From a virus (lineage: Duplodnaviria > Caudoviricetes), in IMG/VR virus record IMGVR_UViG_3300025101_000034, positions 1 through 52,820 of that record: 52,820 nt of DNA; one strand, written 5' to 3'. Below the pieces are notes generated by a model that did no database searches, had not been told where the DNA came from, and was given only the letters and a program-made list of their open reading frames with translations. The translations under genes and the position numbers were made by a program. This document shows positions 27,685-41,690 of this stretch, piece after piece; position 1 is the stretch's first letter; each line of letters begins with the position of its first letter.

Positions 27685-30600
27685 GTGGCAAACTTTAATT
27701 ATTCTCCTAGTTATGCTAGAAGGAACATGCAAAGTGAGCCTATCCAGCAATATGACCTAAATGATTTAGAGTCAGATAAAGAGTTCCAGGCAGTCTCTGA
27801 AAGATTCTTAGGTTCTATTGGTGAACAAGATGATATCTTTGAGTATTTAAGAGACTCTGATTTTAACCTTACGTCAGCTATGAAAAGATATGCTGACTCT
27901 GGTAAGTTTACTGAACAACAAAAGAAAGACTATCAATACTTAAGAACTATGTTTGATGGTGCAGATATAGGTAGTACAGGACAGTTCCTTGAATTAGTTA
28001 AAGACGGAGCAATAGATATGGTTACTGACCCTACTCTAATATTAGCTGCTTTGTTTACTCCTTTTTCAGGAGGAGGAACATTAGCTACTAGAGCTACAGT
28101 AGGTAAAGGAACTGCTCAAGCTTTGAAGATGTTAGGCCAAGCCAATAAAGGAGCTTTAAATAAAACACAGCTTAAAAAGGCTATTGCTGATGGGTCATTA
28201 GAAGAAGCTGCAAAAGCTGCAACAAAAGTAGCAGGTGGTATGGGTGCAATAGAAGCTGGTGGTTGGATGGGTCTACATAACCATGCTAATCAAAACATAG
28301 AAATAAACACAGGTTTAAGAAGAGCTTACTCAGCAAAAGAATTAGTAGGCTCAACTGCTGCTGGTGTTTTACTAGGTGGTGTTGTTGGTTATGGTGGACA
28401 GAAGTGGTCTAATTTTTCTAATCCAGTTTTACAAATAAACAATAAACCTAAAGTCTATAGAGACGATAGTATTATAGATAATGTCCGATTAAAGTTTAAT
28501 CAAGCCTGGGACAATACTGTAGGTAGAGTTATATTAGGTAATGCTGCTCAACTAAGAACCTTAGAAAAACAAGGGGTAAAGTATGCATCTTTCTTCAGAG
28601 GTTTATTAGACCATGATTCTCAGTTAGGTATAGGTAAAAGAAGTAATAAAAAAGTAGAGTGGAGTTTTCCTGAACAATTAAATGCCAGACGAGGTGATTA
28701 TATGTTCATGGAAGAAGGACAGCGAATAGGATTTTTTAAGGCTATCGAGCCTATAGCTCCTGATGGAGTTATGATGCAAGCTGATGAGATTGCTATTATT
28801 AGATTCTTAAGAGGAAATAAAAAAGCATTACAAGGAAAAAGTAAAGAAACAGTACAAGTAGCTAATGACTTAAGAAAATGGTTTGATGGTATAGCTAAAG
28901 ATGCTCAAGATGCAGGCTTTGGCGATATAAGAATAGAAGATTATTTTCCAAGAGAATGGAATAGACAAGCTATAAAAGATAATAGACCAGAGTTTGTTGC
29001 ACAGTTATCTAAAGATTTAAAAATATCCCAAAAAGAAGCAGATGATATTGCAGAGGGTATGTTAAATATTAATAATGAATTATATGCCAGCCATAGTAAC
29101 TTACTTACCCACGGTAGAAAATTAAAATTAGATGACAATGCTTATGAAAAATATTTAACCAATGAGTTAATACCTGTTAGTGCTAGTTATGGTTTAAATG
29201 CTGCTAATACAATACAAACTAAAATAAGTTTTTTAGGTGGTGCTAAATCTAATACAAAGGTTGTAAAAAGCAGAGACATAGAAGGTAAAGAAGTATTAAC
29301 ATTTCAAAGCTTAAGACAAAATAATATAGATGATTTTATAAGAACTCATGTAGATACGTTAGATGATGATGTATTTAACACTTTAGGTAGACGTTTAACA
29401 TCTACAGAAAGAAAAGACATGATAGAATCTTTCAAGTCTGTTACAGGTGCAGTAAACTTTTTTGAAGGACAAATAAAACAAGGAGTATATGATGGCCTCA
29501 AGCTTGCTAATGCTATGGCTTATCTGCCTTTAGCTACTATCTCTTCTTTCTCAGAAGGTTTGATAGCAGCTTCCAGGGTATCAGGAAAGCAGTCTGTAAA
29601 AAACTTTCAGTATCAACTAGAAAATGGTATGCAATTTTTAACAACAGATTTAAAAAGTTTGTTAAAAGAAAGAAGGGGTTTATCAGAAGTTGTAGCTAAT
29701 AGAGAAGCTAACAGAGTTTACTTAGCTGTAGATGATGTGCAAGCAGATTTAACAAATAGATTAGCTGGTGATGGATTACAAAATGCAGCTTTGCAAAGAG
29801 GAGCTAGAGTATTCTACAAAGCTAACTTACTATTACCTTGGACAAAGACTATTGAGCTTGCAGCTTTTAATACAGGTAGAGATATAGTTGAGGAGTCATT
29901 AATTCAACTAAGTAAACTACAAAAAGCTGGAGTAAAAATATTTGATGATGTTGATACTTTTGTAAACTCAACAACAGGTAAAGATAAAGACATACTTAAA
30001 CAACTAGATAGTATGGATGGAGTTTGGGCTGGTAAAGGTAATCTTTATAAAAGAACAAACTATCTAAAAGAACAAGTACAGGACATGGGTATAAGTGTCA
30101 AAGAAGGACTGGACTGGTTAGAGTCTGGTGCAAATAGAAATAGTAATTTCTGGACAAAAGAAATGTCTAAAGCAGGTGGTAGATTTGCAAGAAGTATAAT
30201 TCTACCTACATCTAGAGAATTTTCTAAAGTTCCTAGATATATGACTAATCCTAAATTTGATATATTTACACAGTTTTTAAGATACCCTACAGCATTTAGT
30301 AATACTGTATTAAAAAACTTTGCTAGAGATACTTTAAATAGCCCTGCAATGTCAGCTCCAAGGTTTGCAGCTTTTGTAGCAGGCTCAACAGCTATTGCAA
30401 GAGGTACTAATTACTGGAGAAGTAGTCCAGAACAACAAGCAAGGTACGACCAGTTTGCAAGAAAGCCAGGAACTGATTTAAAAGGTAAAGCTTTTGATGC
30501 TTTTGTAGCTAGAAGTGCAGACGAGAATCTTAGAGCTTTCCAAAGAGTAGGTTTATTAGGGCCAACAGAATATGCATTGAGGTTTGCAGATGCTTATAGA

Positions 30601-31419
30601 GCAAATCCAAATCCTTTAGTAGCTATCTCAAGTTTAGGTGGGCCGATTATGGGTGACATTACAGGCTCTACACTTTACAACAGAGGGCTTTTTGAAACTA
30701 TAGCAAGGAAAACTCCTTTGATAGGTATTAGACATCCGTTAAAAAGATACACAGGATATGACCCTTTCGAACCAATTATTGAAGGTGGTAAATTTTTAGA
30801 TGAAGAAGCTAGATACCAACTACAACAAGGTATTGAAGATGTACTACCACCAAGAGTAGGTTATAAAAAAGGTGGGGTTGTAAAAGAATCATTTAAAGAA
30901 GTAGGACGTATGCGATATAACACAGGAAGTCTTGTAATAAATGATAGAACTATTGATAAAGAAACAAGAATAAGATTAGATAGTATAGATAATGATTTAA
31001 AAAACTTAGGATATAGTAAAGTTGCTAGAGCAGCTATCCTAGGTAATATTCATGTAGAAACAGGTGGTACTTATGACCATCAACAAAGACAAGATAACGG
31101 TAATGGTTATGGTCTTTATCAGTTTGATTTCCAAAAGAAATTTTATATGGAAAATGAAGATAGCTATTTAGCATCTAACAAGTTTGAAGATACTCCTATG
31201 AATCAAACTATGTTTATGCATGAAAGTATTAATCAATTAGCACCAGGAAAACATACAGTAGATAAAAATAAAATAGGTCAGTTACAAAGAGATTTACAGG
31301 GTGATGATGTAGCAAGAGCAGCTATCTCATTTTCTGAAAATTACTTACAACCTAGCATGCCACATATAGATAGAAGAAGAGATGCAGCAAGAACTATATT
31401 TAAAGTATTAGGAGATTAG
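27685..31419 (+). CDS. Large internal virion protein with a C-terminal phage-tail-lysozyme-like domain
   Basis: 1244 aa; C-terminal 'AAILGNIHVETGG...GYGLYQF...AAISFSENY..P' is typical of the phage tail lysozyme fold. Confidence 0.8.
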   Translation: MANFNYSPSYARRNMQSEPIQQYDLNDLESDKEFQAVSERFLGSIGEQDDIFEYLRDSDFNLTSAMKRYADSGKFTEQQKKDYQYLRTMFDGADIGSTGQFLELVKDGAIDMVTDPTLILAALFTPFSGGGTLATRATVGKGTAQALKMLGQANKGALNKTQLKKAIADGSLEEAAKAATKVAGGMGAIEAGGWMGLHNHANQNIEINTGLRRAYSAKELVGSTAAGVLLGGVVGYGGQKWSNFSNPVLQINNKPKVYRDDSIIDNVRLKFNQAWDNTVGRVILGNAAQLRTLEKQGVKYASFFRGLLDHDSQLGIGKRSNKKVEWSFPEQLNARRGDYMFMEEGQRIGFFKAIEPIAPDGVMMQADEIAIIRFLRGNKKALQGKSKETVQVANDLRKWFDGIAKDAQDAGFGDIRIEDYFPREWNRQAIKDNRPEFVAQLSKDLKISQKEADDIAEGMLNINNELYASHSNLLTHGRKLKLDDNAYEKYLTNELIPVSASYGLNAANTIQTKISFLGGAKSNTKVVKSRDIEGKEVLTFQSLRQNNIDDFIRTHVDTLDDDVFNTLGRRLTSTERKDMIESFKSVTGAVNFFEGQIKQGVYDGLKLANAMAYLPLATISSFSEGLIAASRVSGKQSVKNFQYQLENGMQFLTTDLKSLLKERRGLSEVVANREANRVYLAVDDVQADLTNRLAGDGLQNAALQRGARVFYKANLLLPWTKTIELAAFNTGRDIVEESLIQLSKLQKAGVKIFDDVDTFVNSTTGKDKDILKQLDSMDGVWAGKGNLYKRTNYLKEQVQDMGISVKEGLDWLESGANRNSNFWTKEMSKAGGRFARSIILPTSREFSKVPRYMTNPKFDIFTQFLRYPTAFSNTVLKNFARDTLNSPAMSAPRFAAFVAGSTAIARGTNYWRSSPEQQARYDQFARKPGTDLKGKAFDAFVARSADENLRAFQRVGLLGPTEYALRFADAYRANPNPLVAISSLGGPIMGDITGSTLYNRGLFETIARKTPLIGIRHPLKRYTGYDPFEPIIEGGKFLDEEARYQLQQGIEDVLPPRVGYKKGGVVKESFKEVGRMRYNTGSLVINDRTIDKETRIRLDSIDNDLKNLGYSKVARAAILGNIHVETGGTYDHQQRQDNGNGYGLYQFDFQKKFYMENEDSYLASNKFEDTPMNQTMFMHESINQLAPGKHTVDKNKIGQLQRDLQGDDVARAAISFSENYLQPSMPHIDRRRDAARTIFKVLGD

Positions 31420-31420
31420 A

Positions 31421-31864
31421 TTGGGATTTCCGTTTGAAATAATTACTATGCTTGCATCTACAGTCCTAGGTGGACTGATGAGTGTATGGGCTGAAAGTAG
31501 AAAAGCTAAAGCAGAACAGCAAAAGCTACTCATTACACGTGGTGAGTTTGAGATGAAAGCTAGAAAGCAATCACTTGACCATGGATTAAAAGATAAAGGA
31601 TTTGCCTGGACAAGAAGAATTATAGCTTTGACTTCAGTATTTGCTATTGTACTTTTACCAAAGTTAGTTGCTGTATATTATCCGAATGTAGATGTAACAG
31701 TAGGTTACACTAACTGGAATCCTGGGTTTTGGTTTTTTAAAGAAGGAAGAGAAGTATTTGAGTGGATAACTTTTCAGGGCTTAGTAATAACACAATTAGA
31801 CACTAACTTAGTATCAGCAATTATAGGTATGTACTTTGGTGGTAGTTTAGCAAAGGGCAGATAA
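31421..31864 (+). CDS. Membrane protein (holin-like candidate), TTG start
   Basis: RBS AGGAG; ~3 hydrophobic segments; C-terminal 'AIIGMYFGG'. Confidence 0.7.
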   Translation: MGFPFEIITMLASTVLGGLMSVWAESRKAKAEQQKLLITRGEFEMKARKQSLDHGLKDKGFAWTRRIIALTSVFAIVLLPKLVAVYYPNVDVTVGYTNWNPGFWFFKEGREVFEWITFQGLVITQLDTNLVSAIIGMYFGGSLAKGR

Positions 31865-32151
31865 TGAATACAAATCAATGGATGAGCCTACTAGAGACAG
31901 TAGGAATACCAGCAGCCTTTGCAGTTGCATGTGGCTACATGGTCTGGAAATTATTTCAACATCTAATAGCAGATGTACATAAGAAACTAGATACTCAACA
32001 CGGCATGATAGTTGCATTGATAGATAGAATAAGACAAATGGATAACGATATGATAAGAATAGACTCTATGGTACGAACAGCAATGGGAGTATCTATAGAT
32101 GTCGATAGACTAGCGAGGGCAGATGGGAAAAAAGACCAAAGAAAAGATTGA
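31864..32151 (+). CDS. Small single-TM membrane protein
   Basis: 'VGIPAAFAVACGYMVW' TM segment, then helical 'LIDRIRQMDNDMIRID'; coupled on both sides. Confidence 0.7.
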   Translation: MNTNQWMSLLETVGIPAAFAVACGYMVWKLFQHLIADVHKKLDTQHGMIVALIDRIRQMDNDMIRIDSMVRTAMGVSIDVDRLARADGKKDQRKD

Positions 32152-32599
32152 ATTAGGAACTTTGATTGCAGTATTTGTAATCTCAGTATTAGGTGTTAGC
32201 AATATACATGCTGATGAAATGGTGCATAAATTTAAAAATCCATCATTTAGTGGCATAGGTACATCTGCACATTACCTTACCATAGAGAACCAAGAGTTCA
32301 CTAGAAAAATGAGTATAAAAGAAGAACTCAAAGCCCTACAAGAACAAATAGAAAGAGATAAAGAGAATACAACACTAGCTAGATTTATTAGAAATTTAGA
32401 ATCTAGAATATATGCACAACTATCTAGACAGTTGGTAGAAAATTTATTTGGAGAAAATCCTAGTACAAGTGGAATACTAACTTTAGAAGGTAATACTATA
32501 GAATATAGTATAGAAGACGGAATAATAACACTAACTATAACAGCAAGCGATGGAACACAAACGACTATTCAGTTGCCTATTGGCGATTTTAGCTTTTAG
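32123..32599 (+). CDS. csgF: Curli assembly component CsgF-like
   Basis: Signal peptide, then 'MVHKFKNPSFSG' (cf. mature CsgF TMTFQFRNPNFGG); C-terminal 'ITLTIT..DGTQTTIQLP'. Confidence 0.85.
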   Translation: MGKKTKEKIELGTLIAVFVISVLGVSNIHADEMVHKFKNPSFSGIGTSAHYLTIENQEFTRKMSIKEELKALQEQIERDKENTTLARFIRNLESRIYAQLSRQLVENLFGENPSTSGILTLEGNTIEYSIEDGIITLTITASDGTQTTIQLPIGDFSF

Positions 32600-33359
32600 T
32601 GGTTGTGCAGTAATAAGTGAGAATAACGATTTAGTTTTAACAAAAAAAATACAACCCTCAACTATATTAGAAATACAATCAGATGAGCTATTTGAGATGC
32701 CTGGTGCTAAACAGCAGCCAGTTGTCGCAGTATACCCTAACAGTTTTAAAGATTTAACAGGCCAAAGAAGAAGTAATAGTTCTTTTGCCTTATTTAGTAC
32801 AGCCATAACACAAGCTCCAGAAGCAATATTGATAAGAGCTTTGAAGCATACAGCAGATGGCAAGTTCTTCAAAGTAGTAGAACGTGTGGGACTCGATGAC
32901 CTCACAAAAGAAAGACAATTAATTAGGTCAACTCGTAAAGAGTTTGAACAAGATGCAAAATTACAGCCTTTGCTTTTCGCAGGGCTTATGTTCCAGGGAG
33001 GGGTAATCTCGTATGAGGCTAACCTAAAGTCTGGAGGATTGGGAGCTAGGTATCTAGGTATAGGTAATAGCAAACAATATCGAGAAGATACTGTAATCAT
33101 TTCACTACGATTGGTTTCTGTATCTACAGGTGAGGTGCTAATGGAGACATCCGTTTCTAAAAGCATTTTATCTACAAGTGTTTCTCAGGACGTGTTTCGT
33201 TTTATTGAAGCTGGCACAGAGCTAGTAGAGATAGAAGGAGGAGTTGCTGAGAACGAATCTATCGCTATTGCTTTAACAAAGGCAGTAGAGGCAGGGGTAC
33301 TAAATATAATAAAAATAGGAATAGAGAGAGGCTATTGGGAATATGAAGAATCTAATTAG
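32550..33359 (+). CDS. csgG: Curli secretion channel CsgG-like lipoprotein
   Basis: Lipobox LAFSG-C; 'VAVY..FKDLTGQ', 'FSTAITQ', 'VVERVGLDDLTKERQLIR', 'GARYLGIG..QYREDTV..LRLVSVSTGEVL', 'EIEGG..NE'. Confidence 0.92.
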   Translation: MEHKRLFSCLLAILAFSGCAVISENNDLVLTKKIQPSTILEIQSDELFEMPGAKQQPVVAVYPNSFKDLTGQRRSNSSFALFSTAITQAPEAILIRALKHTADGKFFKVVERVGLDDLTKERQLIRSTRKEFEQDAKLQPLLFAGLMFQGGVISYEANLKSGGLGARYLGIGNSKQYREDTVIISLRLVSVSTGEVLMETSVSKSILSTSVSQDVFRFIEAGTELVEIEGGVAENESIAIALTKAVEAGVLNIIKIGIERGYWEYEESN

Positions 33360-34050
33360 TATATTAGTTATGTTATCGCTAAGTGTATTAGCAGATAATG
33401 AAATATATATTGACCAATCAGGCGATACTGCCAATATTGATTTGGAGCAACTAGGAGGAGATAGTAACATCATTGCTGGGTTAGAAAGCACAGCAGGAAA
33501 TTTAACACCGTTAGATTTAGATGGAGATAATCTTACACTAGACATAAATCAAATAGGTGGTTCTAATACTTTTCTAGGAGATATTTGGGCTGACAACTTT
33601 ACAGGTTATTTTAATTTTGATGGAAGCAGTAATGATTTCACAATTCAAGTAGACCCAAGTAACACTTATGGTGCAGACGGCTCAGATGTTAACATTGACG
33701 TGTCAGGGAGTAGTAATGACTTTACACTAGACTTAGCTACAACAGCTATGGCTACTAATACAGACCTTGACTGGATTGTAAATGGAGATGGAAACGTATT
33801 TGATTTTGATATTAATTATGATGGAGCTACAAACTATGTAGACGTTGATGGTGATTCAAACACAGTCAACTTTGAAGGTAGTGGTTATGCTGGTGGGTAT
33901 TTTTACCTAGACCAAACAGGCGACTCACGAACTTTCGACATCCAACAATTAAGTACATTAAATAATGATTGGCTCAAGATTATATCCAATGGTTCTAATG
34001 GTAGCGTGTGTATTATCCAAGACGATAATGGCACAGCCGTTGGATGCTAG
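33343..34050 (+). CDS. Secreted curlin-repeat-like (CsgA/CsgB-like) protein
   Basis: Signal peptide; 'NEIYIDQSG..ANIDLEQLG..N', 'LTLDINQIGGSN', 'FYLDQTG..FDIQQ' beta-arcade repeats; next to csgG. Confidence 0.7.
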   Translation: MKNLISILVMLSLSVLADNEIYIDQSGDTANIDLEQLGGDSNIIAGLESTAGNLTPLDLDGDNLTLDINQIGGSNTFLGDIWADNFTGYFNFDGSSNDFTIQVDPSNTYGADGSDVNIDVSGSSNDFTLDLATTAMATNTDLDWIVNGDGNVFDFDINYDGATNYVDVDGDSNTVNFEGSGYAGGYFYLDQTGDSRTFDIQQLSTLNNDWLKIISNGSNGSVCIIQDDNGTAVGC

Positions 34051-35074
34051 CATTGGTAACATAACAGAACTTAACGGAGCAGGCAGGATTGTAAGGGATA
34101 AACCTTATGATGCTGCCTTATCTTTTAATATAGAAAGTTTTGATAATGTTCAAACTTCAGAAGGTCGTATAGGTATTACATTCCTAGACGATAGTCAGGT
34201 TAGATTAACAGAACATTCTGAACTTATCATAGACGAGTTTATCTATGATGCTGACCCATCTAAATCTAAGATGGCTTTACAGTTTGCAAGTGGTACTGCA
34301 AGATTTATTACAGGCAAACTTGCAACAATAAATAAAGAAAATATTTTTATAGAGACTCCTAGTGCTACTATTGGTATTCGTGGTACAGACTTTACGATTA
34401 CTATAGACGAGCTTGGAAGGTCTCTTATTATTTTATTGCCTGATGAAAATGGTTTACCAAGTGGAGAGATAGTAGTAGCTACAGCTATGGGTGAGGTTGT
34501 TTTAAATCAGCCCTATCAAGCTACATCAGTATCTACATTTGAGAGTGAGCCTGCAAAGCCTGTAGTGTTGGACATAACTACAGAGCTAATAGATAACATG
34601 TTAATAGTTAGTCCACCAGAGGAAGAGTTTAATGCTAGTGAAGAGAATATGTCAGATAGTGGTAGTAACATACTTGATGTTGATTATCTGGAGTTTGACG
34701 ACCTGGATGTAGATTTATTAAAAGATGATAGTTTAGAATTTACAGAGCTAGATATAAATTATTTAGATGTAAATTTTTTAGAAGACTTACTAGATATAAT
34801 AGAAGAAGTAAACGAGCTAGATGAAACAGAAAGCTTACTAAGAACAGATGTAAACTTAAAAGGTACACAGGTAGGGTTTGACCCTAATACTCAAATAAAT
34901 ACTTTTATTACAGACCAACAAATAAGTTTGCTTAGAAGTGTAGAGCATACAGTTAGAATAGATTTAGATAAAGCAGGAGCTTATACCGTCATACTAATAC
35001 AAGATGGTAAGAGTACACAACTTGTAGTAAATGGTGGTGGAGATTCTGTTATAAAAATTAAGCAGAGTAACTAA
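33965..35074 (+). CDS. FecR-domain periplasmic protein with an acidic C-terminal extension
   Basis: 'DNVQT.EGRIGITFLDDSQVRLTEHSELIID', 'GTARFITG', 'IETPSATIGIRGTDF' are FecR signatures. Confidence 0.85.
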   Translation: MIGSRLYPMVLMVACVLSKTIMAQPLDASIGNITELNGAGRIVRDKPYDAALSFNIESFDNVQTSEGRIGITFLDDSQVRLTEHSELIIDEFIYDADPSKSKMALQFASGTARFITGKLATINKENIFIETPSATIGIRGTDFTITIDELGRSLIILLPDENGLPSGEIVVATAMGEVVLNQPYQATSVSTFESEPAKPVVLDITTELIDNMLIVSPPEEEFNASEENMSDSGSNILDVDYLEFDDLDVDLLKDDSLEFTELDINYLDVNFLEDLLDIIEEVNELDETESLLRTDVNLKGTQVGFDPNTQINTFITDQQISLLRSVEHTVRIDLDKAGAYTVILIQDGKSTQLVVNGGGDSVIKIKQSN

Positions 35075-36804
35075 TGAGATGGGCTAGTTTATTAATAGGA
35101 TTATTGGCATTGCCTTTGTTATTTAATGTAGCTCCGTTAGAAACATTAAGACTTAAAACATTTGACAGGCTAGTAGATACACCTGAACCTACAGGATATT
35201 TTACAATACTAAATATAACTGAGGAGTATATAGATAGTCAGGGTGGTTATCCTTTACCTAGAGAAACACTAGCAGATATACACATAAAACTTTTACAAGA
35301 AGGAGCAATAGGAGTAGGGTGGACTATGTTATTTCCCCATCCTGATAGACTAGGAGGAGATGAGAAGTTTGCTGAAGTCTTGTCTTTTTCTCCTAGTATA
35401 CTTGCAATGCCTGAAGTACCTAATGGCATATATCCTAAAACACATGGTACAGTCATCCGAGGGCCAGAGGTAAATCTACCAAAAGCCCAAGGATTTTTAC
35501 AAAACATAGACATACTTAAAAACAATTCTAGCCAGGGGGCTGTGTCTGCTCCTGTTGATGTAGATAATCTTGTTAGACAAATACCTTTAATGCAACAAAC
35601 ACCTAATGGGTGGGTCGCTTCTTTTGGGACTGAAGTATTAAAAGTATTAGGTGGTGGTAATACATATCAGATTGTTACCAATGATAACGGTATAGAGATG
35701 GTAAGAGTTAGAGGACTAGACCCTATACCTACTGATAGTTATGGACGTAAATGGATTAGCTGGGTAGATACACCACAGACAACACTAGATAATTTAGATG
35801 TAGCAGGCAAGTTTGTCTTCGTAGGTTTTACAGCTAAAGGTATAACAAGTCAGCTAGCAACTCCTGTTGGATTACTTGAGCCTCACAAAATTCAAGCAGC
35901 TCTTGCCGAGTCAATATTATTAGATACACCACAGATACCAGACTACAGATTGTTTGTAGAGCTACTATTATTATGTGTCTCTGGTCTTCTTATAGCTGTT
36001 GTAATACGTTCTTTTGGTATCACACTATCAATGGTATTAGCTGGAGGTTTGTTTGCTTCAGTAGGATATCTGGGATATTACTTTGTGTCTATTGGTTATC
36101 TTATAGATGTGACCTGGAGTATGACAAGTATGACACTTTTATCTCTACAACAATTTTATTTAAGATTTAGACAGCAATATAGATTAAGACAACAAATCAG
36201 AAAACAGTTTGAACATTACCTTGACCCAAGACAAGTTGCCAGGCTACAAAAAAATCCAGGGCTTTTGAAGTTAGGTGGTGAAAGAAAAAGATGTACGATT
36301 ATGTTTACAGATGTCAGAGGCTTTACAAGTCTATCAGAAAAGTTAGAGCCTGAAGAAGTTATAAAGATTATGAACAAGGCCTTGACTGTACAAGCTGATG
36401 CCGTTCAAAAGAATGGAGGGATGGTAGACAAATATATAGGGGATGCAATGATGGCTGTATGGAATGCTCCATTAGATGTAGACAATCAAGAACAGTTAGC
36501 TATTGAAACAGCTCTTCAAATACAACACGACATGCAAGAAGCAGAGTTAGAAGTTGAAATTGGTATAGGAATAAATACAGGAATAGTTTGTGTAGGTAAT
36601 ATGGGGTCAGCTTCCAGGTTTGAATATAGCTGTTTAGGTGATGCTGTAAATTTAGCTGCTCGTTTGGAGTCTTCATGTAAGTCTGTTGGTAAAAATTTAG
36701 TCATAGGTGAGGAGACAATTAAGAATTATCAGGGTGAATATACAGAATTAGAACCTATTTTTGTAAAAGGTAAGGAAAAAGAGGTCAAAATCTACACAAT
36801 ATAG
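35074..36804 (+). CDS. CHASE2-domain class III adenylate cyclase
   Basis: N-terminal TM, CHASE2 ('YPLPRETLA', 'DVDNLVRQIPL', 'GKFVFVG', 'TPVG'), 3 TMs; cyclase motifs MFTDVRGFT, DKYIGDAMM, GDAVNLAARLE. Confidence 0.93.
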   Translation: MRWASLLIGLLALPLLFNVAPLETLRLKTFDRLVDTPEPTGYFTILNITEEYIDSQGGYPLPRETLADIHIKLLQEGAIGVGWTMLFPHPDRLGGDEKFAEVLSFSPSILAMPEVPNGIYPKTHGTVIRGPEVNLPKAQGFLQNIDILKNNSSQGAVSAPVDVDNLVRQIPLMQQTPNGWVASFGTEVLKVLGGGNTYQIVTNDNGIEMVRVRGLDPIPTDSYGRKWISWVDTPQTTLDNLDVAGKFVFVGFTAKGITSQLATPVGLLEPHKIQAALAESILLDTPQIPDYRLFVELLLLCVSGLLIAVVIRSFGITLSMVLAGGLFASVGYLGYYFVSIGYLIDVTWSMTSMTLLSLQQFYLRFRQQYRLRQQIRKQFEHYLDPRQVARLQKNPGLLKLGGERKRCTIMFTDVRGFTSLSEKLEPEEVIKIMNKALTVQADAVQKNGGMVDKYIGDAMMAVWNAPLDVDNQEQLAIETALQIQHDMQEAELEVEIGIGINTGIVCVGNMGSASRFEYSCLGDAVNLAARLESSCKSVGKNLVIGEETIKNYQGEYTELEPIFVKGKEKEVKIYTI

Positions 36805-36921
36805 TGTAAATGCTCTCTCGCTTACGGAGAAGCTCTCTAACGAATTTTATGCCTTTTGATACCTAGAGCATTACTTACATGCTAATCGTTCACCACAGAG
36901 CATTCTGTGAGGTCGATTTTC

Positions 36922-37146
36922 TTATAAAGCTTGAATTTCACGTTGCAAGTACACATGTAATGGTTCAAGCTTCGCTTTTGCTCTTTGAAGTAAAACTCTG
37001 ATGATTTGTCTATCCATTTCTGAAAATACTACATCAACTTTATCAACTGGAAACTCAGATATCTCTGAGACTATTTTACCCTCTGGTGTAAGTAGCACCG
37101 AAAAACTTATTAGGTTGCCCTCACTCTTTTGTTTTTTCCTCTTCAT
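36922..37146 (-). CDS. Hypothetical protein
   Basis: 74-aa ORF overlapping the upstream gene; last gene of the - arm. Confidence 0.65.
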   Translation of the reverse strand: MKRKKQKSEGNLISFSVLLTPEGKIVSEISEFPVDKVDVVFSEMDRQIIRVLLQRAKAKLEPLHVYLQREIQAL

Positions 37147-37573
37147 TTCTTTTCCTTAATTCAGTAGTGCTAAATCTGTGTCCCCTCTTGTTATAATATA
37201 TTTCTATTCCTCTTTCTTTACATAATCCTCTACCAGTAAATACAGAGTTTCTATATTCCTCTCCTATAATTCTTACATCTATAGGAAAGGTATATAAAAT
37301 ATCTTCTAGTTCATCCTCTCTATGGTAGACAACAATCTCATCTACCCACTTTATTCCTTTTAATTGTATCTGTCTTTCTACAATACTTTGTAAAGGTTTG
37401 TTTTTTTCTGGCCTGTCTGTGGATGGGTCAGTCTGTAATGCTACAATCAAGTAGTCACATACTGTCCTGGCTTCTTCTAACATAGTAACATGACCTGCAT
37501 GTAATAAATCAAAAGCCCCACAAGTAATACCTACTTTAGCTTTGAGTCCTAAGATATCAAACTTCTTGCTCAT
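37121..37573 (-). CDS. Glycerol-3-phosphate cytidylyltransferase-like (TagD family)
   Basis: HxGH motif 'GAFDLLHAGH', 'DYLIVALQTDP', 'R..RFSTTELR'. Confidence 0.88.
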   Translation of the reverse strand: MSKKFDILGLKAKVGITCGAFDLLHAGHVTMLEEARTVCDYLIVALQTDPSTDRPEKNKPLQSIVERQIQLKGIKWVDEIVVYHREDELEDILYTFPIDVRIIGEEYRNSVFTGRGLCKERGIEIYYNKRGHRFSTTELRKRNEEEKTKE

Positions 37574-38553
37574 TCAGATAAATCTGCAAACGTAATGTTC
37601 TTATGACTACCTCTTAGTCCTGCTTTCATATAAGTAGTTGCTCTACCCTCAAAGAAGTTCTGATGTTCTACACCCATAACTTCATCTAACCAAGGTAAAG
37701 GATTTTCTTTTTGATTGTAATTAGGTTTTAATCCTAACTGTAATAATCTTCTATCAGCTATGTATCTATTGTAAGCATACATGTCGTCTTTAGTAAGGCC
37801 TTGTAAATCTCCCATCTCAAATACTAAGTCAAGAAACTTGTCTTCAAGCTTTACCATCTCTCTACATATTTGATAGATTTCTTTTTTAAATTCATCAGTC
37901 CATATATTTAAGTTCTCTTGTATGAACTCTCTAAATAATTTAGTCATAGCTTCAACATGCATTGATTCATCACGAATAGAATAAGTTACAATCTGACCCA
38001 TTCCTTTCATTTTACCGAACCTTGGAAAGTTTAATAAGATTGCAAAGCTACTAAATAATTGTAGGCCTTCTGTAAAAGCTGAGTAAACTGCTAGAGTTTT
38101 AGCTATAGTTTTTTTATCAGACTTTAATGGTTTAAAGTTACCAACATAATCATGCTTGTCAGACATCTCTTCATACTCAGCAAATGCTTTGTATTCTATC
38201 TCAGGCATTCCTACTGTATCTAATAATAGACTGTAAGCATCTTGGTGTATTGACTCCATGTTAGCAAATGAAGACATCATCATTCTTGCTTCTGGCTTTT
38301 TAAATATAGGCATGTACTTGTCTACATAACCTGCACCTACGTCTACATCTGATTGTGTAAATAATCTAAAGATTTGAGTAAGTAAATACTTCTCATTCTT
38401 TGTAACATCCTGCCAATCTTTTACGTCATTGTGTAAAGGTACTGACTCAGGCATCCAATGCATTTGATTCTGTAGTTTGTAATAATCATACATCCACGGA
38501 TATTCAAACGGTTTGTAATAATCTCTATCAGTTAATAGTGCCATCTTGCTCAA
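37570..38553 (-). CDS. nrdB: Ribonucleotide reductase class I beta subunit
   Basis: Di-metal ligands SDVDV, ESIH, TEG, RDESMH; radical Tyr in 'HQDAY'; C-terminal 'NFFE'. Confidence 0.95.
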   Translation of the reverse strand: MSKMALLTDRDYYKPFEYPWMYDYYKLQNQMHWMPESVPLHNDVKDWQDVTKNEKYLLTQIFRLFTQSDVDVGAGYVDKYMPIFKKPEARMMMSSFANMESIHQDAYSLLLDTVGMPEIEYKAFAEYEEMSDKHDYVGNFKPLKSDKKTIAKTLAVYSAFTEGLQLFSSFAILLNFPRFGKMKGMGQIVTYSIRDESMHVEAMTKLFREFIQENLNIWTDEFKKEIYQICREMVKLEDKFLDLVFEMGDLQGLTKDDMYAYNRYIADRRLLQLGLKPNYNQKENPLPWLDEVMGVEHQNFFEGRATTYMKAGLRGSHKNITFADLSE

Positions 38554-39463: not shown

Positions 39464-39798
39464 TTCTTCCTTTTATGTAATTTAATAAAATATTCTGCAT
39501 CAATAACAATCAATGGTTTATGCCTGTTCTTTTTTATAACAACTACAGGTTCATACTTCCCACAGTTTTCCGATGCTTGTTTGTAGGATGTCCAGACATT
39601 GACTCGTTCCTGATTTTTACATTCAACTGAGTAAGGAAAATTCTTCCTTGCAGCTCTTGCCATAATAAGGTCTTCACCAGAAGAACCCATAGGGCGACTT
39701 TCAATATCTTCCACATGTATTTTTAATTCTTTTATAAGTTGGTCTCTAGTCCACTTTTGTAGATTACGACCTTTAGCTTTTGCTGATTGTGTCTTCAT
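39460..39798 (-). CDS. Holliday-junction-resolvase-like PD-(D/E)XK nuclease
   Basis: 'SAKAKGRNLQ', 'MGSSGEDL', 'SVECKNQE'. Confidence 0.75.
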   Translation of the reverse strand: MKTQSAKAKGRNLQKWTRDQLIKELKIHVEDIESRPMGSSGEDLIMARAARKNFPYSVECKNQERVNVWTSYKQASENCGKYEPVVVIKKNRHKPLIVIDAEYFIKLHKRKK

Positions 39799-41690
39799 CC
39801 TTCACAGGCTATACATTCCACGTCATCTAATTTTATTCTAGGTACTTTTATGTTTACATTCTCTACATTCCTTGCAGCATTTGACCTGAAGTAATATAAA
39901 GATTTTAATTTATTCATTCCGTACCAATGAACATCATTTACATATTGCATGTAATCGTCATGTATTTCCTGAGCCTCCGTTGTCTTTGGTAAAGTAAAAA
40001 ATAAGTTTACTGATTGTGCTTGACATATATATTGTTGTCTTTGATAAGCATGCTCTACTATCCATATCTGATTTATCTCGTTAGCTGTCTTAAATATTTC
40101 TTTCTCTTCGTCTGTAAGAATATCTAATTGTTGAACACTTCCTTCGTTTGCTGTAATACTCTTCCAGGTTTCTTCTAATTTTTTTCCTCTAAGTTTTTTT
40201 TGCTTGAAGATTTTTGATAAGTATTTGTTCTTGACCTGGTAAGAGCCTGATAAAGTTTTGTGGGTATATGCATTAGCACGGTAAGGCTCAATGCTAGGGC
40301 TAGTACCACTACAAATAATGCCAGAGCTAGCATTAGGAGCAACAGCAAGAAGGTTAGCATTACGAAGCTCCCCACCATGTAGGTCAGGACATTCACCACG
40401 TAACTCGCAAAGTCTCTTAGAAGCTTCTGTGGCTGAATTTTTAATAAAGCTAAATGCCTTATGGTTAAAGCTCGTAGCAAAGATGCTTTCAAACGAAATG
40501 TTTTTAGACTGGAGATAAGCATGGAAACCCATTGCTCCCAGACCAAGAGACCTTTCTCTATAAGCAGAGTAAGCAGACTTAATAAAGCCTTCTTTCCCAG
40601 GTTTGATATAGTTTTTAAAACGTTTAAAATTTGCAATGTACCCTCCTAAGTTTGATGTATCTATGGCATTCTCAATATAATGTTCAATGACGTTATCCAA
40701 CATTGTTATTAAATCTTGAATGAACAAAGGTTCTTTAGACCAGGTATCAAAGTGTTCAAGGTTTACACTAGACAAACAACAAACGGCTGTTCTTTCTTCA
40801 TCTGTTGGTAAAGTAATCTCAGAACATAAGTTACTTTGTTTTATACTTAAGCCTAATTCTTTTTGTGGTTCAGGTAAACTATCATTACATGTATCTATAT
40901 TAACCATGTACGGCTCGCCTGTCTCAGCCCTGGCATTTAACATCTGCCACCATAAATCTCTAGCTTTTATAGTCCTTACTGCTTCTTTTGTTTTAGGGTC
41001 AATCAGTCTCCAGTCTGCATCTTCTTTTACTGCCTGGAGATAATCGTTAGTTATGTTTACTCCGTTGTGTAGATTAAGAGACTTTCTATTTATATCGCCA
41101 CCAGATTCTTTTCTAATATTTATAAACTCTTCTATCTCAGGATGTGATATATCCATATAAGCAGCATAGCTACCACGTCTTGTAGTGCCTTGATTGAAGG
41201 CCAGCATCTGTGAGTCTACTACATGGATGAAAGGAATACTTCCAGTAGAACGAGAGCCATGAGCAGTAGATATCCCATTACTCCTAACATCCCCCCAATA
41301 TCCACCAATCCCTCCACCTGAGCTTGCGAGCCAAATATTCTCATCATAATGAGCAGAAAGACCATCCCTACTGTCAGGTACGTAATTAAGAAAGCAACTG
41401 ATAGGAAGCCCACGTGTTGTTCCTCCGTTACTAAGTATAGGAGTGCTGAACATGAACCAACGAGAGGAACAGTAAGAGTAAAGTCTCTGAGCCAATTCAA
41501 AATCTGTTTCACCTTTGTATGTTGCTCCGAAGATGGAGGCTCTTGCGAATGCTTCTTGTGCATGTGTCTCATTATCCCATAAATATCTATCTTTTAAAGT
41601 ATCTAAACTGAATTTATCAAACTCTTTTTCTTTATCGTAGTCTATCGTTATACCTAAATAAGGTTTATTTCCTATTTTATCTTCCATCAT
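39795..41690 (-). CDS. nrdA: Ribonucleotide reductase class I alpha subunit (compact, no evident ATP cone)
   Basis: 'PISCF', 'QGTTRRG', 'SNLCSEI', 'APNASS', C-terminal 'KSLYY' and 'CIACEG'. Confidence 0.95.
   Translation of the reverse strand: MMEDKIGNKPYLGITIDYDKEKEFDKFSLDTLKDRYLWDNETHAQEAFARASIFGATYKGETDFELAQRLYSYCSSRWFMFSTPILSNGGTTRGLPISCFLNYVPDSRDGLSAHYDENIWLASSGGGIGGYWGDVRSNGISTAHGSRSTGSIPFIHVVDSQMLAFNQGTTRRGSYAAYMDISHPEIEEFINIRKESGGDINRKSLNLHNGVNITNDYLQAVKEDADWRLIDPKTKEAVRTIKARDLWWQMLNARAETGEPYMVNIDTCNDSLPEPQKELGLSIKQSNLCSEITLPTDEERTAVCCLSSVNLEHFDTWSKEPLFIQDLITMLDNVIEHYIENAIDTSNLGGYIANFKRFKNYIKPGKEGFIKSAYSAYRERSLGLGAMGFHAYLQSKNISFESIFATSFNHKAFSFIKNSATEASKRLCELRGECPDLHGGELRNANLLAVAPNASSGIICSGTSPSIEPYRANAYTHKTLSGSYQVKNKYLSKIFKQKKLRGKKLEETWKSITANEGSVQQLDILTDEEKEIFKTANEINQIWIVEHAYQRQQYICQAQSVNLFFTLPKTTEAQEIHDDYMQYVNDVHWYGMNKLKSLYYFRSNAARNVENVNIKVPRIKLDDVECIACEG

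What the first reader, a model, noticed from the sequence alone, without database searches (positions are those of the whole stretch)
31421..36804. Phage-encoded curli export plus trans-envelope cAMP signalling operon (top candidate system)
Seen: seven consecutively overlapping genes: two membrane proteins, CsgF, CsgG lipoprotein, a secreted curlin-like protein, a FecR-domain protein and a CHASE2 adenylate cyclase. Overlaps are 1, 29, 50, 17, 86 and 1 bp. Established: CsgG/CsgF form the outer-membrane curli pore; FecR domains relay outer-membrane signals across the periplasm; CHASE2 cyclases (e.g. Sinorhizobium CyaD1/CyaD2/CyaK) make cAMP in response to envelope cues; csgF/csgG have been noted before in some marine phages. 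Inference: a complete surface-to-cytoplasm circuit (curlin at the CsgG pore, FecR relay, CHASE2 sensor, cAMP). It could sense superinfecting phage, cell contact or particles and tune lysis timing or host CRP regulons, rather than build biofilm. No csgE, csgC, csgD or cAMP effector is encoded, so the output would be a host protein or an unrecognised phage protein.
Basis: partly seen in the sequence, partly recalled or inferred. Interest (0 to 1): 0.92.

Follow-up and report, generated by a model that had tools for sequence, protein, structure and literature searches.

The report
Phage curli pore plus cAMP sensor operon
A marine phage carries a six-gene cassette, already described in other ocean phages, that combines a curli-type outer-membrane secretion pore with a periplasmic FecR-like protein and a membrane adenylate cyclase; what it does during infection is still unknown.

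Summary
Seven overlapping + strand ORFs lie at 31421-36804, with CsgF, CsgG, FecR and CHASE2+class III cyclase domains at strong E-values.

It is not new. Wittmers et al. 2022 (PMC9599517) described this module (small "HK", CsgF, CsgG, CsgA/B, FecR, adenylate cyclase) in HTVC023P-type podophages and pelagimyophages. HTVC008M and Melnitz carry it.

- The window is an HMO-2011-type podophage, a third carrier lineage.
- ORF1 is a backbone gene, not part of the module.
- The five-gene core sits contiguously in bacterial chromosomes (Henriciella and Caulobacteraceae MAGs).
- FecR-like genes lie next to CHASE2 sensors in 33 of 69 unrelated bacterial loci, typically with an OmpA lipoprotein between them.

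Coupling to the CsgG pore is untested.

"Tuning host CRP regulons" is doubtful. No cNMP-binding domain was found in the phage, and only 2 of 61 genomes of the presumed SAR11 host family had one.

Verdict: a new member of a known kind, function still open, moderate interest.

The parts
31421..31864 (+). ORF1, a 147-aa membrane protein. It is a podophage backbone gene adjacent to the module but NOT part of it.
   Evidence: No Pfam hit. Matches phrog_38283, unknown function. About 67% nt identity to genes of 16 Pelagibacter and Roseobacter podophage records that lack the module. In HTVC104P it sits in the same position, after the giant virion protein. No homologue in the HTVC008M or Melnitz module. 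Strong hydrophobic segment at residues 61-88.
31864..32151 (+). ORF2, a 95-aa protein with one N-terminal hydrophobic helix. It is the virus-specific first gene of the module, labelled 'HK' in PMC9599517.
   Evidence: phrog_18771, 2.3e-21. 34% identical to two small paralogues upstream of csgF in HTVC008M and Melnitz. Found in phage-type loci L021, L022, L024, L029 and L030 but not in the bacterial loci L025, L026 and L031. No HisKA or HATPase_c match at E<=0.1. Atlas neighbours are all viral hypothetical proteins.
32123..32599 (+). CsgF-family secreted protein.
   Evidence: Pfam CsgF 1.9e-18, covering 5-132 of 132 profile positions. Signal-peptide-like N-terminus. 42% identical to HTVC008M CsgF. 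No PDB sequence hit at E<=1.
32550..33359 (+). CsgG-family outer-membrane lipoprotein (pore).
   Evidence: Pfam CsgG 9.9e-49. E. coli CsgG structures match at 1.3e-43 over residues 5-266. Signal peptide ends in a Cys-containing lipobox-like FSGC.
33343..34050 (+). Secreted Asp/Asn/Gly-rich repeat protein, curlin-like by homology.
   Evidence: Signal peptide and about seven G-[DGS]-[SG]-N-containing repeats. blastp 1e-17 and 7e-15 to the HTVC008M and Melnitz 'curlin' proteins. The Melnitz orthologue passes Curlin_rpt at 26 bits against a 20.7 cut-off, while the window protein alone scores 7.7 bits. The single-sequence AF2 model is all-beta but poor, pLDDT 50.
33965..35074 (+). Periplasmic FecR-like protein (probable start 33989). 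It has a signal peptide, a FecR/PupR-type domain, an acidic disordered linker and a small C-terminal Ig-like beta domain.
   Evidence: Pfam FecR 2.7e-10. AF2 with a 25-sequence alignment gives pLDDT 78.6: residues about 30-200 mostly >90, 220-293 disordered, 300-369 about 85-93. Foldseek matches the PupR C-terminal signalling domain 6ovk (3e-5) and the anti-sigma factor 4m0h (2e-5). The C-domain lead is 5ix9, 'cell surface anchoring domain' (E 0.02, TM 0.70, 26% id), and Lap adhesin repeats (E 0.015). The linker has 29 D/E in 84 residues.
35074..36804 (+). CHASE2-domain class III nucleotide cyclase, predicted adenylate cyclase. Order of parts: TM helix, periplasmic CHASE2, TM cluster, cytoplasmic catalytic domain.
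   Evidence: Pfam CHASE2 1e-27 and Guanylate_cyc 6.8e-23. Hydrophobic segments at 1-25 and 290-334. Best solved relatives are adenylate/guanylate cyclases. Metal Asp413 and Asp457, Arg530 invariant, and Lys453, Arg515, Asn526 nearly invariant in 13 homologues. Lys stands where the guanylate cyclase Cya2 (2w01) has Glu. The window lineage lacks the ~100-aa C-terminal extension of the bacterial and myophage homologues.

Best explanation
ORF2 to ORF7 (31864-36804) are one mobile envelope module. It most likely originated in Alphaproteobacteria and now circulates among marine phages. It lies at the 3' end of the rightward structural gene block, so it is probably expressed late.

It has two functional halves:
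1. A minimal type VIII secretion unit. The CsgG lipoprotein pore and CsgF export a curlin-repeat-like protein to the surface of the infected cell.
2. A two-part envelope sensor. A soluble periplasmic FecR/PupR-type protein works with the periplasmic CHASE2 domain of an inner-membrane class III cyclase, so that cAMP synthesis reports an envelope or periplasmic state.

Shown: the domain identities, intact catalytic residues, co-conservation of the genes in phages and bacteria, and a general FecR-next-to-CHASE2 rule in bacteria.

Inferred:
- that FecR and CHASE2 touch;
- that the extra acidic linker and C-terminal Ig-like domain of this FecR protein connect the sensor to the CsgG/CsgF/curlin half, because the short FecR proteins of the OmpA-type cassettes (about 150 aa) match only the N-terminal domain;
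- that the product is cAMP;
- what the product acts on. The receiver is unknown, because neither the phage nor most genomes of the presumed SAR11 host family show a cNMP-binding domain.
For: - Domains: Pfam; CsgG against E. coli structures, 1.3e-43; cyclase against solved adenylate/guanylate cyclases; catalytic residues conserved across 13 homologues.
- Module identity: ORF2-ORF7 each have a homologue in the same order in HTVC008M and Melnitz. 17 of 17 IMG/VR loci with 75-97% identical FecR keep every module gene their contig reaches.
- Bacterial counterpart: of the 11 best genome-contig loci, L025 and L026 (Caulobacteraceae MAGs) and L031 (Henriciella MAG, 396-kb contig) carry CsgF-CsgG-curlin-like-FecR-CHASE2 cyclase. 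L025 and L031 were scanned and sit among TonB receptors, FAA hydrolase, methylmalonyl-CoA mutase and acyl-CoA dehydrogenase, with no ORF2-like gene.
- Sensor pairing: in 33 of 69 more distant bacterial loci chosen only by a FecR-like match, a CHASE2 ORF lies at most 767 bp away, and every CHASE2 ORF found in those loci is the neighbour. In 7 sampled CHASE2 proteins the output domain varies: HD_5 in 6, histidine kinase in 1. It is a cyclase in 4 of the 33. An OmpA-family lipoprotein lies between the two genes in the cassettes inspected.
- Fold: the FecR domain matches the PupR periplasmic cell-surface-signalling domain.
- Literature: a LysM-FecR protein next to a CHASE2 histidine kinase in Burkholderia (PMC5192318, passages). 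The outer-membrane protein NsrA is required by CHASE2 cyclases in S. meliloti (PMC7529298, abstract and introduction). The module is reported as expressed in metatranscriptomes and found at all 65 GOV2.0 stations (PMC9599517, passages).
- Position: the module follows the virion genes on the same strand with no gap, and the GC skew flips sign at 36-38 kb, right after it.
Against: - No direct evidence that the FecR-like protein binds CHASE2, CsgG, CsgF or the curlin-like protein.
- The window's ORF5 does not itself reach the Curlin_rpt threshold.
- A cAMP receiver is missing. There is no cNMP_binding domain in the phage record, and it was found in only 2 of 61 genomes of the family of the Pelagibacter MAG G001. 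A cAMP signal therefore has no obvious target in the presumed host. Host assignment is itself by similarity only, and those genomes are a sample of unknown completeness.
- PMC9599517 reports that FecR and the cyclase are not present in every viral curli region, so the two halves can be separated.
- L028 has FecR flanked by curlin-like genes but no CsgF/G or cyclase hit within its 18.9 kb.
- Promoter and terminator scans gave no more sites than shuffles, so the operon structure rests on gene overlap only.
Confidence: 0.45

Rival explanations
1. Fibre-making T8SS as an auxiliary function (Wittmers et al.; Zaragoza-Solas et al. as quoted in PMC9004378). The module makes curli-like fibres on infected SAR11 cells, causing aggregation ('sibling capture') or superinfection exclusion. 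FecR and the cyclase are merely regulators of the secretion system, possibly iron-linked, and not an envelope sensor tied to the pore.
For: CsgG, CsgF and curlin-repeat proteins are all present. HTVC008M's second curlin-like protein also has a PA14 domain (2.7e-6) plus five Curlin_rpt stretches, typical of adhesins. This is the published interpretation, with reported expression and global distribution (PMC9599517, passages).
Against: Buchholz et al. saw no clumping of Melnitz-infected cultures (PMC9004378, passage). The FecR-like protein has no cytoplasmic anti-sigma part, only a signal peptide and then the FecR domain, so it cannot act like FecR of the iron-citrate system. Its bacterial relatives pair with CHASE2 sensors of varied output, not with iron genes. 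The window lacks the second, PA14-bearing curlin gene.
Confidence: 0.25
2. Lysis-timing pore (Buchholz et al. 2022). With no CsgE gate, CsgG, alone or with CsgF, serves as a gated outer-membrane channel or pinholin-like device that helps time release of progeny. The other genes modulate its opening.
For: No CsgE in the phage. The module lies at the end of the late block, directly after a virion protein with a lysozyme domain and the membrane protein ORF1. ORF2's nearest named Atlas clusters are small holin-like families, but only at lead level: YvrJ 0.89 and Holin_BhlA 0.86. The hypothesis is published (PMC9004378).
Against: The same five-gene core sits in bacterial chromosomes among housekeeping genes, where a lysis role makes no sense. 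An outer-membrane pore about 1 nm wide (figure from PMC9004378) cannot depolarise the inner membrane by itself. Nothing explains conservation of a curlin-like substrate, FecR and a cyclase.
Confidence: 0.1
3. Import channel. The ungated CsgG pore lets nutrients or cofactors into the periplasm of the infected cell, and FecR/CHASE2 senses the incoming substrate.
For: CsgE is absent. The idea was raised in PMC9599517 and, via PMC9004378, by Zaragoza-Solas et al..
Against: A secreted curlin-like substrate and CsgF are conserved with the pore, which fits export better. There is no transporter or binding protein in the module.
Confidence: 0.07

Closest known systems
Pelagiphage T8SS module of HTVC023P-type podophages and pelagimyophages (Wittmers et al. 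2022, PMC9599517)
   Same: Same gene set and order: small 'HK' protein, CsgF, CsgG, CsgA/B-like, FecR, adenylate cyclase. It lacks CsgE (CsgC and CsgD were not searched in the window). An alphaproteobacterial origin and spread between phage families are proposed.
   Different: The window's phage is of another type. Portal and capsid are 58-61% identical to the HMO-2011-type pelagiphages HTVC115P, 103P and 104P. Only 2 weak ORF matches link it to the first 50 kb of the HTVC023P-type genome MW574966. It is 52.8 kb with 36.6% GC, against 58.8 kb and 42% reported for that type. It has one small TM gene and no second curlin gene. The paper does not mention CHASE2 (0 occurrences) and reads FecR as iron-related.
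Curli-FecR-cyclase region of Pelagibacter phage HTVC008M and Methylophilales phage Melnitz (KC465899, MZ577097)
   Same: ORF2 to ORF7 all have homologues in the same order (30-44% identity).
   Different: These are T4-like myophages. They carry two ORF2-like genes, a second curlin-repeat gene between FecR and the cyclase, and a cyclase with a ~100-aa C-terminal extension.
Escherichia coli curli system (csgBAC/csgDEFG)
   Same: CsgG pore lipoprotein (1.3e-43 to the solved E. coli protein), CsgF, and a repeat-rich secreted subunit.
   Different: No CsgE was found. CsgC and CsgD were not searched. The subunit is only distantly curlin-like. In the constriction loop the Phe aligned with E. coli Phe56 is kept, but the residues aligned with Tyr51 and Asn55 differ (alignment; residue numbering recalled). 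FecR and a CHASE2 cyclase are added.
Sinorhizobium meliloti NsrA with CyaK and CyaD1/D2
   Same: Inner-membrane CHASE2 adenylate cyclases that need an outer-membrane protein to perceive an external signal (PMC7529298, abstract and introduction). This is the closest working analogy for an outer-membrane-to-CHASE2 relay.
   Different: NsrA is described as a beta-barrel receptor, not CsgG. The paper does not mention a FecR-domain partner (0 occurrences). The output goes to the Crp-like regulator Clr, for which no counterpart was found here.
Bacterial FecR-(OmpA lipoprotein)-CHASE2 cassettes, including the Burkholderia 'BiofilmReg' operon (PMC5192318)
   Same: A secreted FecR-domain protein is encoded next to a CHASE2 sensor (33 of 69 loci; literature). 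An outer-membrane-associated lipoprotein is encoded alongside.
   Different: The output is mostly an HD-GYP-type HD_5 domain or a histidine kinase, not a cyclase. The FecR protein is only about 150 aa, without the acidic linker and C-terminal Ig-like domain. The lipoprotein is OmpA-like, not CsgG.
FecR/PupR anti-sigma factors of TonB-dependent cell-surface signalling
   Same: Same periplasmic fold (6ovk, 3e-5; 4m0h, 2e-5) and Pfam family.
   Different: There is no cytoplasmic anti-sigma domain and no membrane-spanning helix after it. The protein starts with a signal peptide. No TonB-dependent transducer or ECF sigma factor lies within the module.

Membership tests
Type VIII secretion (curli) system | CsgG-family outer-membrane lipoprotein pore | tested here: met
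   Pfam CsgG 9.9e-49. E. coli CsgG structures match at 1.3e-43 over residues 5-266. Signal peptide with a Cys lipobox-like motif.
Type VIII secretion (curli) system | CsgF accessory protein | tested here: met
   Pfam CsgF 1.9e-18, nearly the full profile. No PDB sequence hit at E<=1. The N-terminal F-x-N-P-x-F motif seen after the signal peptide matches the pore-inserting peptide as I recall it (recalled, no call).
Type VIII secretion (curli) system | Secreted curlin-repeat subunit (CsgA/CsgB type) | tested here: inconclusive
   The window ORF5 scores 7.7 bits on Curlin_rpt against a 20.7 cut-off. Its Melnitz homologue scores 26 bits, and homology between them is 7e-15. The AF2 model is too poor to judge, pLDDT 50.
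Type VIII secretion (curli) system | Accessory and regulatory genes CsgE, CsgC, CsgD | tested here: not met
   CsgE (PF10627) had no match at E<=0.1 in the 52.8-kb record, while the control found it in E. coli. CsgC and CsgD were not searched. PMC9599517 states that they are absent from viral and alphaproteobacterial modules.
Type VIII secretion (curli) system | Formation of extracellular amyloid fibres | not testable with these tools
   Needs microscopy or dye binding on expressing cells.
Class III adenylate cyclase | Catalytic domain with two metal-binding Asp, transition-state Asn/Arg, and Lys plus Ser/Thr/Asp base-specifying residues | tested here: met
   Guanylate_cyc 6.8e-23. Asp413, Asp457 and Arg530 are invariant, and Lys453, Arg515 and Asn526 nearly invariant, in 13 homologues. 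Lys stands where the guanylate cyclase Cya2 (2w01) has Glu. The assignment of roles to residues is from recalled literature.
Class III adenylate cyclase | cAMP synthesis | not testable with these tools
   Needs an enzyme assay or complementation of a cyaA mutant.
CHASE2 receptor | Periplasmic CHASE2 domain between an N-terminal helix and a cluster of membrane helices | tested here: met
   CHASE2 1e-27 over residues 12-305. Hydrophobic segments at 1-25 and 290-334.
FecR/PupR-type anti-sigma factor | Periplasmic FecR domain and fold | tested here: met
   Pfam FecR 2.7e-10. Foldseek 6ovk at 3e-5 and 4m0h at 2e-5, about 147 aligned columns.
FecR/PupR-type anti-sigma factor | Cytoplasmic anti-sigma domain plus a membrane helix N-terminal to the FecR domain | tested here: not met
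   The protein has only about 25 N-terminal residues (signal-peptide-like helix 6-21) before the folded domain starts at about residue 30. There is no other Pfam domain. It should not be filed as an anti-sigma factor.
FecR-CHASE2 sensor cassette (bacterial) | FecR-domain gene immediately beside a CHASE2-domain gene | tested here: met
   In the window the two genes overlap by 1 nt. The same adjacency holds in 33 of 69 bacterial loci.
Histidine kinase (label given to ORF2-like genes in PMC9599517) | HisKA/DHp and HATPase_c domains | tested here: not met
   ORF2 is 95 aa with no Pfam match above cut-off, and none of the weak matches is a kinase domain. Atlas neighbours are viral hypothetical proteins. 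The paper's supplements, which may give the basis of the label, were not available.

The most novel reading that the evidence does not exclude
The FecR-like protein is a periplasm-spanning tether. Its C-terminal Ig-like domain, which resembles adhesin anchoring domains, docks on or passes through the CsgG/CsgF channel or the exported curlin-like fibre. Its 80-residue acidic linker crosses the periplasm, and its FecR domain engages CHASE2. A type VIII secretion pore would then serve as the outer-membrane half of a cAMP-producing surface sensor, a relay not described for any T8SS. In SAR11 cells, which mostly lack cNMP-binding proteins, the cAMP would act on an unrecognised phage or host receiver, for example to time lysis or block superinfection.
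Probability: 0.15. Interest if true: 0.8.

Novelty: new member of a known kind. Interest (0 to 1): 0.45.

Why it matters
These modules are among the most widespread non-structural gene sets of ocean phages. PMC9599517 reports them at all 65 GOV2.0 stations. Their function is unknown.

Three results make the question more testable:
- The FecR and CHASE2-cyclase genes also lie contiguously with csgF/csgG in bacterial chromosomes.
- FecR-CHASE2 is a general bacterial sensor pair.
- The presumed host family mostly lacks canonical cAMP receptors.

Together these suggest a defined sensor hypothesis, possible culturable bacterial model systems, and a specific missing component: the cAMP receiver.

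Tried and rejected
- Complex prediction of the CHASE2 periplasmic domain (residues 21-292, 13-row alignment) with the FecR N-domain (27-222, 25-row alignment): score 0.00 and 0.00, controls not run, 'no answer'. It is not used as evidence either way.
- The look-up of sequencing runs (kind rna) for 29000-37500: no RNA holder was listed. No reads were laid.
- Single-sequence AF2 of the curlin-like ORF5: pLDDT 50, unusable, so no fold search was made on it.
- Idea that the FecR protein's C-terminus is a single curlin repeat: hhalign against 13 curlin-like proteins gave probability 19.8%. The fold and sequence leads point instead to an Ig-like adhesin-type domain. The idea was dropped.
- Promoter and terminator scan of 27000-38000: 30 promoter-like sites against 39.3+/-6.3 in shuffles, and 4 terminator-like sites against 4.6+/-2.4. 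Uninformative.
- Origin of the window's copy. Quick trees place the window lineage, on a long branch, with the Caulobacteraceae and Henriciella sequences for FecR (99) and the cyclase (98). The AU test does not reject a tree with all six bacterial cyclases together (p 0.135). No claim of independent capture is made. Only 15 rows per tree were used, chosen by me from the loci with full-length genes.
- CsgF against PDB by sequence: nothing at E<=1.
- tRNA scan of the window: none found.
- Literature: 'HMO-2011-type' with 'CsgG' or with 'curli' gave 0 papers. This holds only for the held library. Supplements of PMC9599517 and PMC9004378 could not be seen and may list contigs of this lineage.

Full report
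**Observation**

Pfam gives the following, all above curated cut-offs:
- CsgF, 1.9e-18
- CsgG, 9.9e-49
- FecR, 2.7e-10
- CHASE2, 1e-27, and Guanylate_cyc, 6.8e-23, in the last protein

PHROGs has unknown-function families for six of the seven proteins. Hydropathy and N-terminal sequences fit the expected locations:
- signal peptides on CsgF, the repeat protein and the FecR protein;
- a lipobox-like FSGC on CsgG;
- one N-terminal helix in ORF2;
- helix, periplasmic domain, helix cluster, then catalytic domain in the cyclase.

The repeat protein ORF5 does not reach the Curlin_rpt threshold on its own (7.7 bits against 20.7). It is homologous to the 'curlin' proteins of HTVC008M and Melnitz (1e-17 and 7e-15), and the Melnitz one does pass at 26 bits. 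The FecR ORF probably starts at 33989, since most homologues are 358-361 aa.

**What the window is**

G000 is a 52,820-bp virus record rated 99% complete. It encodes:
- terminase, portal and major head protein on the + strand, and ribonucleotide reductase on the - strand;
- a 1244-aa virion protein with a C-terminal phage lysozyme domain directly upstream of the finding.

Portal and capsid are closest (58-61% and 51-59% identity) to Pelagibacter phages HTVC115P, HTVC103P and HTVC104P. Next come HTVC033P, Puniceispirillum phage HMO-2011 and Roseobacter CRP phages. This is an HMO-2011-type podophage, and its host is presumably SAR11. That host assignment is by similarity only.

**Extent of the module**

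blastp against the annotated regions of the T4-like myophages HTVC008M and Melnitz shows that ORF2 to ORF7 all have homologues there in the same order:

| Window gene | Identity to myophage homologue |
|---|---|
| ORF2 | 34%, to two small paralogues upstream of csgF |
| CsgF | 42% |
| CsgG | 44% |
| repeat protein (ORF5) | 30% |
| FecR | 39% |
| cyclase | 35% |

ORF1 has no counterpart in the myophage module. Instead it shows about 67% nucleotide identity to genes of 16 Pelagibacter and Roseobacter podophage records that lack the module. In HTVC104P the homologue lies downstream of the giant virion protein, separated from it by an Hsp20 gene. The module is therefore 31864-36804 (six genes), and ORF1 is backbone.

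The myophages have an extra curlin-repeat gene between FecR and the cyclase. In HTVC008M that gene also carries a PA14 domain. The window lacks it.

**Prior knowledge**

- Buchholz et al. 2022 (PMC9004378; passages read) discuss csgF/csgG of Melnitz and HTVC008M and propose a role in lysis timing. Their text never mentions the cyclase or FecR.
- Wittmers et al. 2022 (PMC9599517; abstract, passages and section 8 read) describe the full module as one or two 'histidine kinase' genes, CsgF, CsgG, CsgA/B, FecR, often a second CsgA/B, and an adenylate cyclase. They found it in nine HTVC023P-type podophage genomes and in pelagimyophages. They infer an alphaproteobacterial origin with transfer between viral families. 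They report expression in metatranscriptomes and presence at all 65 GOV2.0 stations.

The finding as a gene set is therefore already published.

The carrier phage differs from theirs. The first 50 kb of their HTVC023P-type genome MW574966 shares only two weak ORF matches with the window. That type averages 58.8 kb and 42% GC, against 52.8 kb and 36.6% GC here. No paper in the library combines 'HMO-2011-type' with 'curli' or 'CsgG'.

**Co-conservation**

A scan of IMG/VR with the FecR protein gave 17 loci at 75-97% identity. All 17 carry every module gene their contig reaches. The FecR protein is very common in metagenomes:
- 6416 clusters at E<=0.001 among 8000 scored candidates;
- 12,101 representatives at E<=0.001, and 126 at E<=1e-30, in the 50% library.

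The 11 best loci (L021-L031) match the FecR protein over all or most of its length:
- Nine of the 11 have CsgG and FecR ORFs together by phmmer.
- L021 has the FecR match by tblastn only.
- L028 has FecR and curlin-like genes but no CsgF/G or cyclase.
- A cyclase or CHASE2 ORF follows in 8 of the 9 loci with enough downstream sequence.

Loci with ORF2-like genes (L021, L022, L024, L029, L030) look like phage contigs binned into MAGs:
- L022 carries T4-type DNA polymerase, ligase and clamp loader.
- L029 matches several PHROG families.

L031 (Henriciella MAG, 396-kb contig) and L025 (Caulobacteraceae MAG) are different. They carry CsgF-CsgG-curlin-like-FecR-CHASE2 cyclase without any ORF2-like gene. 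Their flanks are TonB-dependent receptors, FAA hydrolase, an FAD oxidase, amidohydrolase, acyl-CoA dehydrogenase and methylmalonyl-CoA mutase. L026, a second Caulobacteraceae MAG, has the same core without an ORF2-like gene, but its flanks were not scanned.

The five-gene core is therefore a bacterial chromosomal unit. This qualifies the statement in the abstract of PMC9599517 that FecR and the cyclase are not within bacterial T8SS operons. ORF2-like genes appear to be a viral addition.

**The sensor half**

The other 69 loci (L032-L100) match only the N-terminal FecR domain. They were selected with no regard to neighbours.
- An iterated CHASE2 profile finds a CHASE2 ORF in 33 of the 69, in every case at most 767 bp from the FecR gene.
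- In the cassettes inspected, the gene between the two is an OmpA-family lipoprotein.
- Of 7 CHASE2 proteins scanned, 6 end in an HD_5 (HD-GYP-type) domain and 1 in a histidine kinase. Of the 33, 4 are cyclases.

The same input pair is thus wired to different outputs, as expected for a sensor module. The literature agrees:
- A LysM-FecR protein lies next to a CHASE2 kinase in Burkholderia (PMC5192318).
- S. meliloti CHASE2 cyclases depend on the outer-membrane protein NsrA (PMC7529298).

An AF2 model of the window's FecR protein, built with a 25-sequence alignment, has mean pLDDT 78.6. It shows three parts:
- a confident N-domain, residues about 30-200;
- a disordered acidic linker, residues 220-293, with 29 D/E of the 84 residues counted (215-298);
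- a confident small beta domain, residues 300-369.

Foldseek matches the N-domain to the PupR cell-surface-signalling domain (6ovk, 3e-5) and an anti-sigma factor (4m0h, 2e-5). For the C-domain it gives the lead 5ix9, 'cell surface anchoring domain' (E 0.02, TM 0.70, 26% identity). phmmer gives Lap adhesin repeats at E 0.015.

The protein has no cytoplasmic anti-sigma part, so it is not a FecR-type anti-sigma factor. The short FecR proteins of the OmpA-type cassettes lack the linker and C-domain. This is the basis, by inference only, for proposing that this extension links the sensor to the secretion half.

**The cyclase**

The best solved relatives are bacterial class III cyclases. Across 13 homologues the two metal Asp and one Arg are invariant. 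The Lys, a further Arg and the Asn are nearly invariant. The window has Lys where the guanylate cyclase Cya2 has Glu, and Ser at the second specificity position. That pattern is adenylate-type. The residue roles are recalled from the literature.

The window lineage lacks the ~100-aa C-terminal extension of the bacterial and myophage enzymes.

**The missing receiver**

- No cNMP_binding domain occurs in the phage record.
- In the family of G001, the Pelagibacter sp. TMED203 MAG that holds L024, the domain was found in 2 of 61 genomes sampled. Class III cyclases were found in 3 of 61.
- The Henriciella and Caulobacteraceae genomes that carry the chromosomal module have 4 and 7 cNMP_binding matches.

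These are samples of MAGs of unstated completeness, so the correct wording is 'not found in those searched'.

**ORF2**

The 'histidine kinase' label in PMC9599517 is not supported here. ORF2 is 95 aa with no kinase domain, and its Atlas neighbours are only viral hypothetical proteins.

**Evolution**

Quick trees of CsgG, FecR and the cyclase put the window lineage on a long branch. In the FecR and cyclase trees it sits beside the Caulobacteraceae and Henriciella sequences, not beside the myophages. The AU test does not reject the tree that holds all six bacterial cyclases in one clade (p 0.135). The route of acquisition stays open.

**Verdict**

- The gene set is already known, here in a new phage lineage.
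- The complex prediction gave no verdict, and no RNA runs were listed. Both are reported under Tried and rejected only.

Noticed in passing
L032-L100 (e.g. L045:9923-13060, L044:9911-13092, L052:9977-13051): A recurrent bacterial three-gene cassette: a secreted ~150-aa FecR-domain protein, a ~200-aa OmpA-family lipoprotein, and a CHASE2 sensor ending in an HD_5 (HD-GYP-type) domain. It occurs across beta-, gamma- and deltaproteobacterial and Nitrospirae-type MAGs. The searches made here turned up no paper describing it.
   Followed up: partly
L031:6466-12489; L025:7074-13094; L026:7037-13094: Chromosomal CsgF-CsgG-curlin-like-FecR-CHASE2 cyclase modules in Henriciella and Caulobacteraceae MAGs, without the viral ORF2-like genes. 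L025 and L026 have two curlin-like genes. L031 has one 504-aa weakly curlin-like gene. These could serve as bacterial model systems for the phage module.
   Followed up: partly
window 35074-36804 versus L022, L025-L027, L029, L031 (alignment A3): The cyclase of the window lineage (576-577 aa) ends right after the catalytic domain. Bacterial and myophage-type homologues carry a further ~100 aa ending in a conserved W-D-G-V...K motif.
   Followed up: no
window 27685-31419: A 1244-aa protein with a C-terminal Phage_lysozyme2 domain (2.1e-17) and a match to a large 'endolysin' PHROG. It is probably an ejected internal virion protein with a cell-wall hydrolase, directly upstream of ORF1.
   Followed up: no
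window 11790-18185: A giant 2131-aa ORF. The stretch 14-18 kb has the highest GC (0.405-0.422) and GC skew (0.26-0.32) of the window. It was not annotated.
   Followed up: no
window 19133-20968: A 611-aa protein matching the PHROG '2OG-Fe(II) oxygenase' family over its full length (2.6e-110), with weaker glucosyltransferase and ferrochelatase-family matches. PMC9599517 describes 2OG-Fe(II) oxygenase/ferrochelatase partner genes in other pelagiphages.
   Followed up: no
G013:C1:11393-11917, G062:C11:2599-3144 (family of G001): The few class III cyclase matches in SAR11-family genomes lie in open frames of 583 and 596 aa, close to the phage cyclase length (576 aa). They may be phage contigs binned into MAGs and not host genes. 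This was not checked.
   Followed up: no
L028:9039-11850: An alphaproteobacterial MAG contig with a full-length FecR-like gene flanked by two curlin-like genes, but with no CsgF, CsgG or CHASE2 hit within the 18.9-kb locus. It is an exception to the co-conservation.
   Followed up: no
window 36922-38553, minus strand: The module ends at a convergent junction, and the cumulative GC skew turns over at 36-38 kb. The first minus-strand genes are a 74-aa ORF, a 150-aa ORF and the ribonucleotide reductase small-subunit-like 327-aa ORF. The minus-strand genes here were not Pfam-scanned. Only the 631-aa RNR large subunit at 39795-41690 was scanned, against PHROGs.
   Followed up: no
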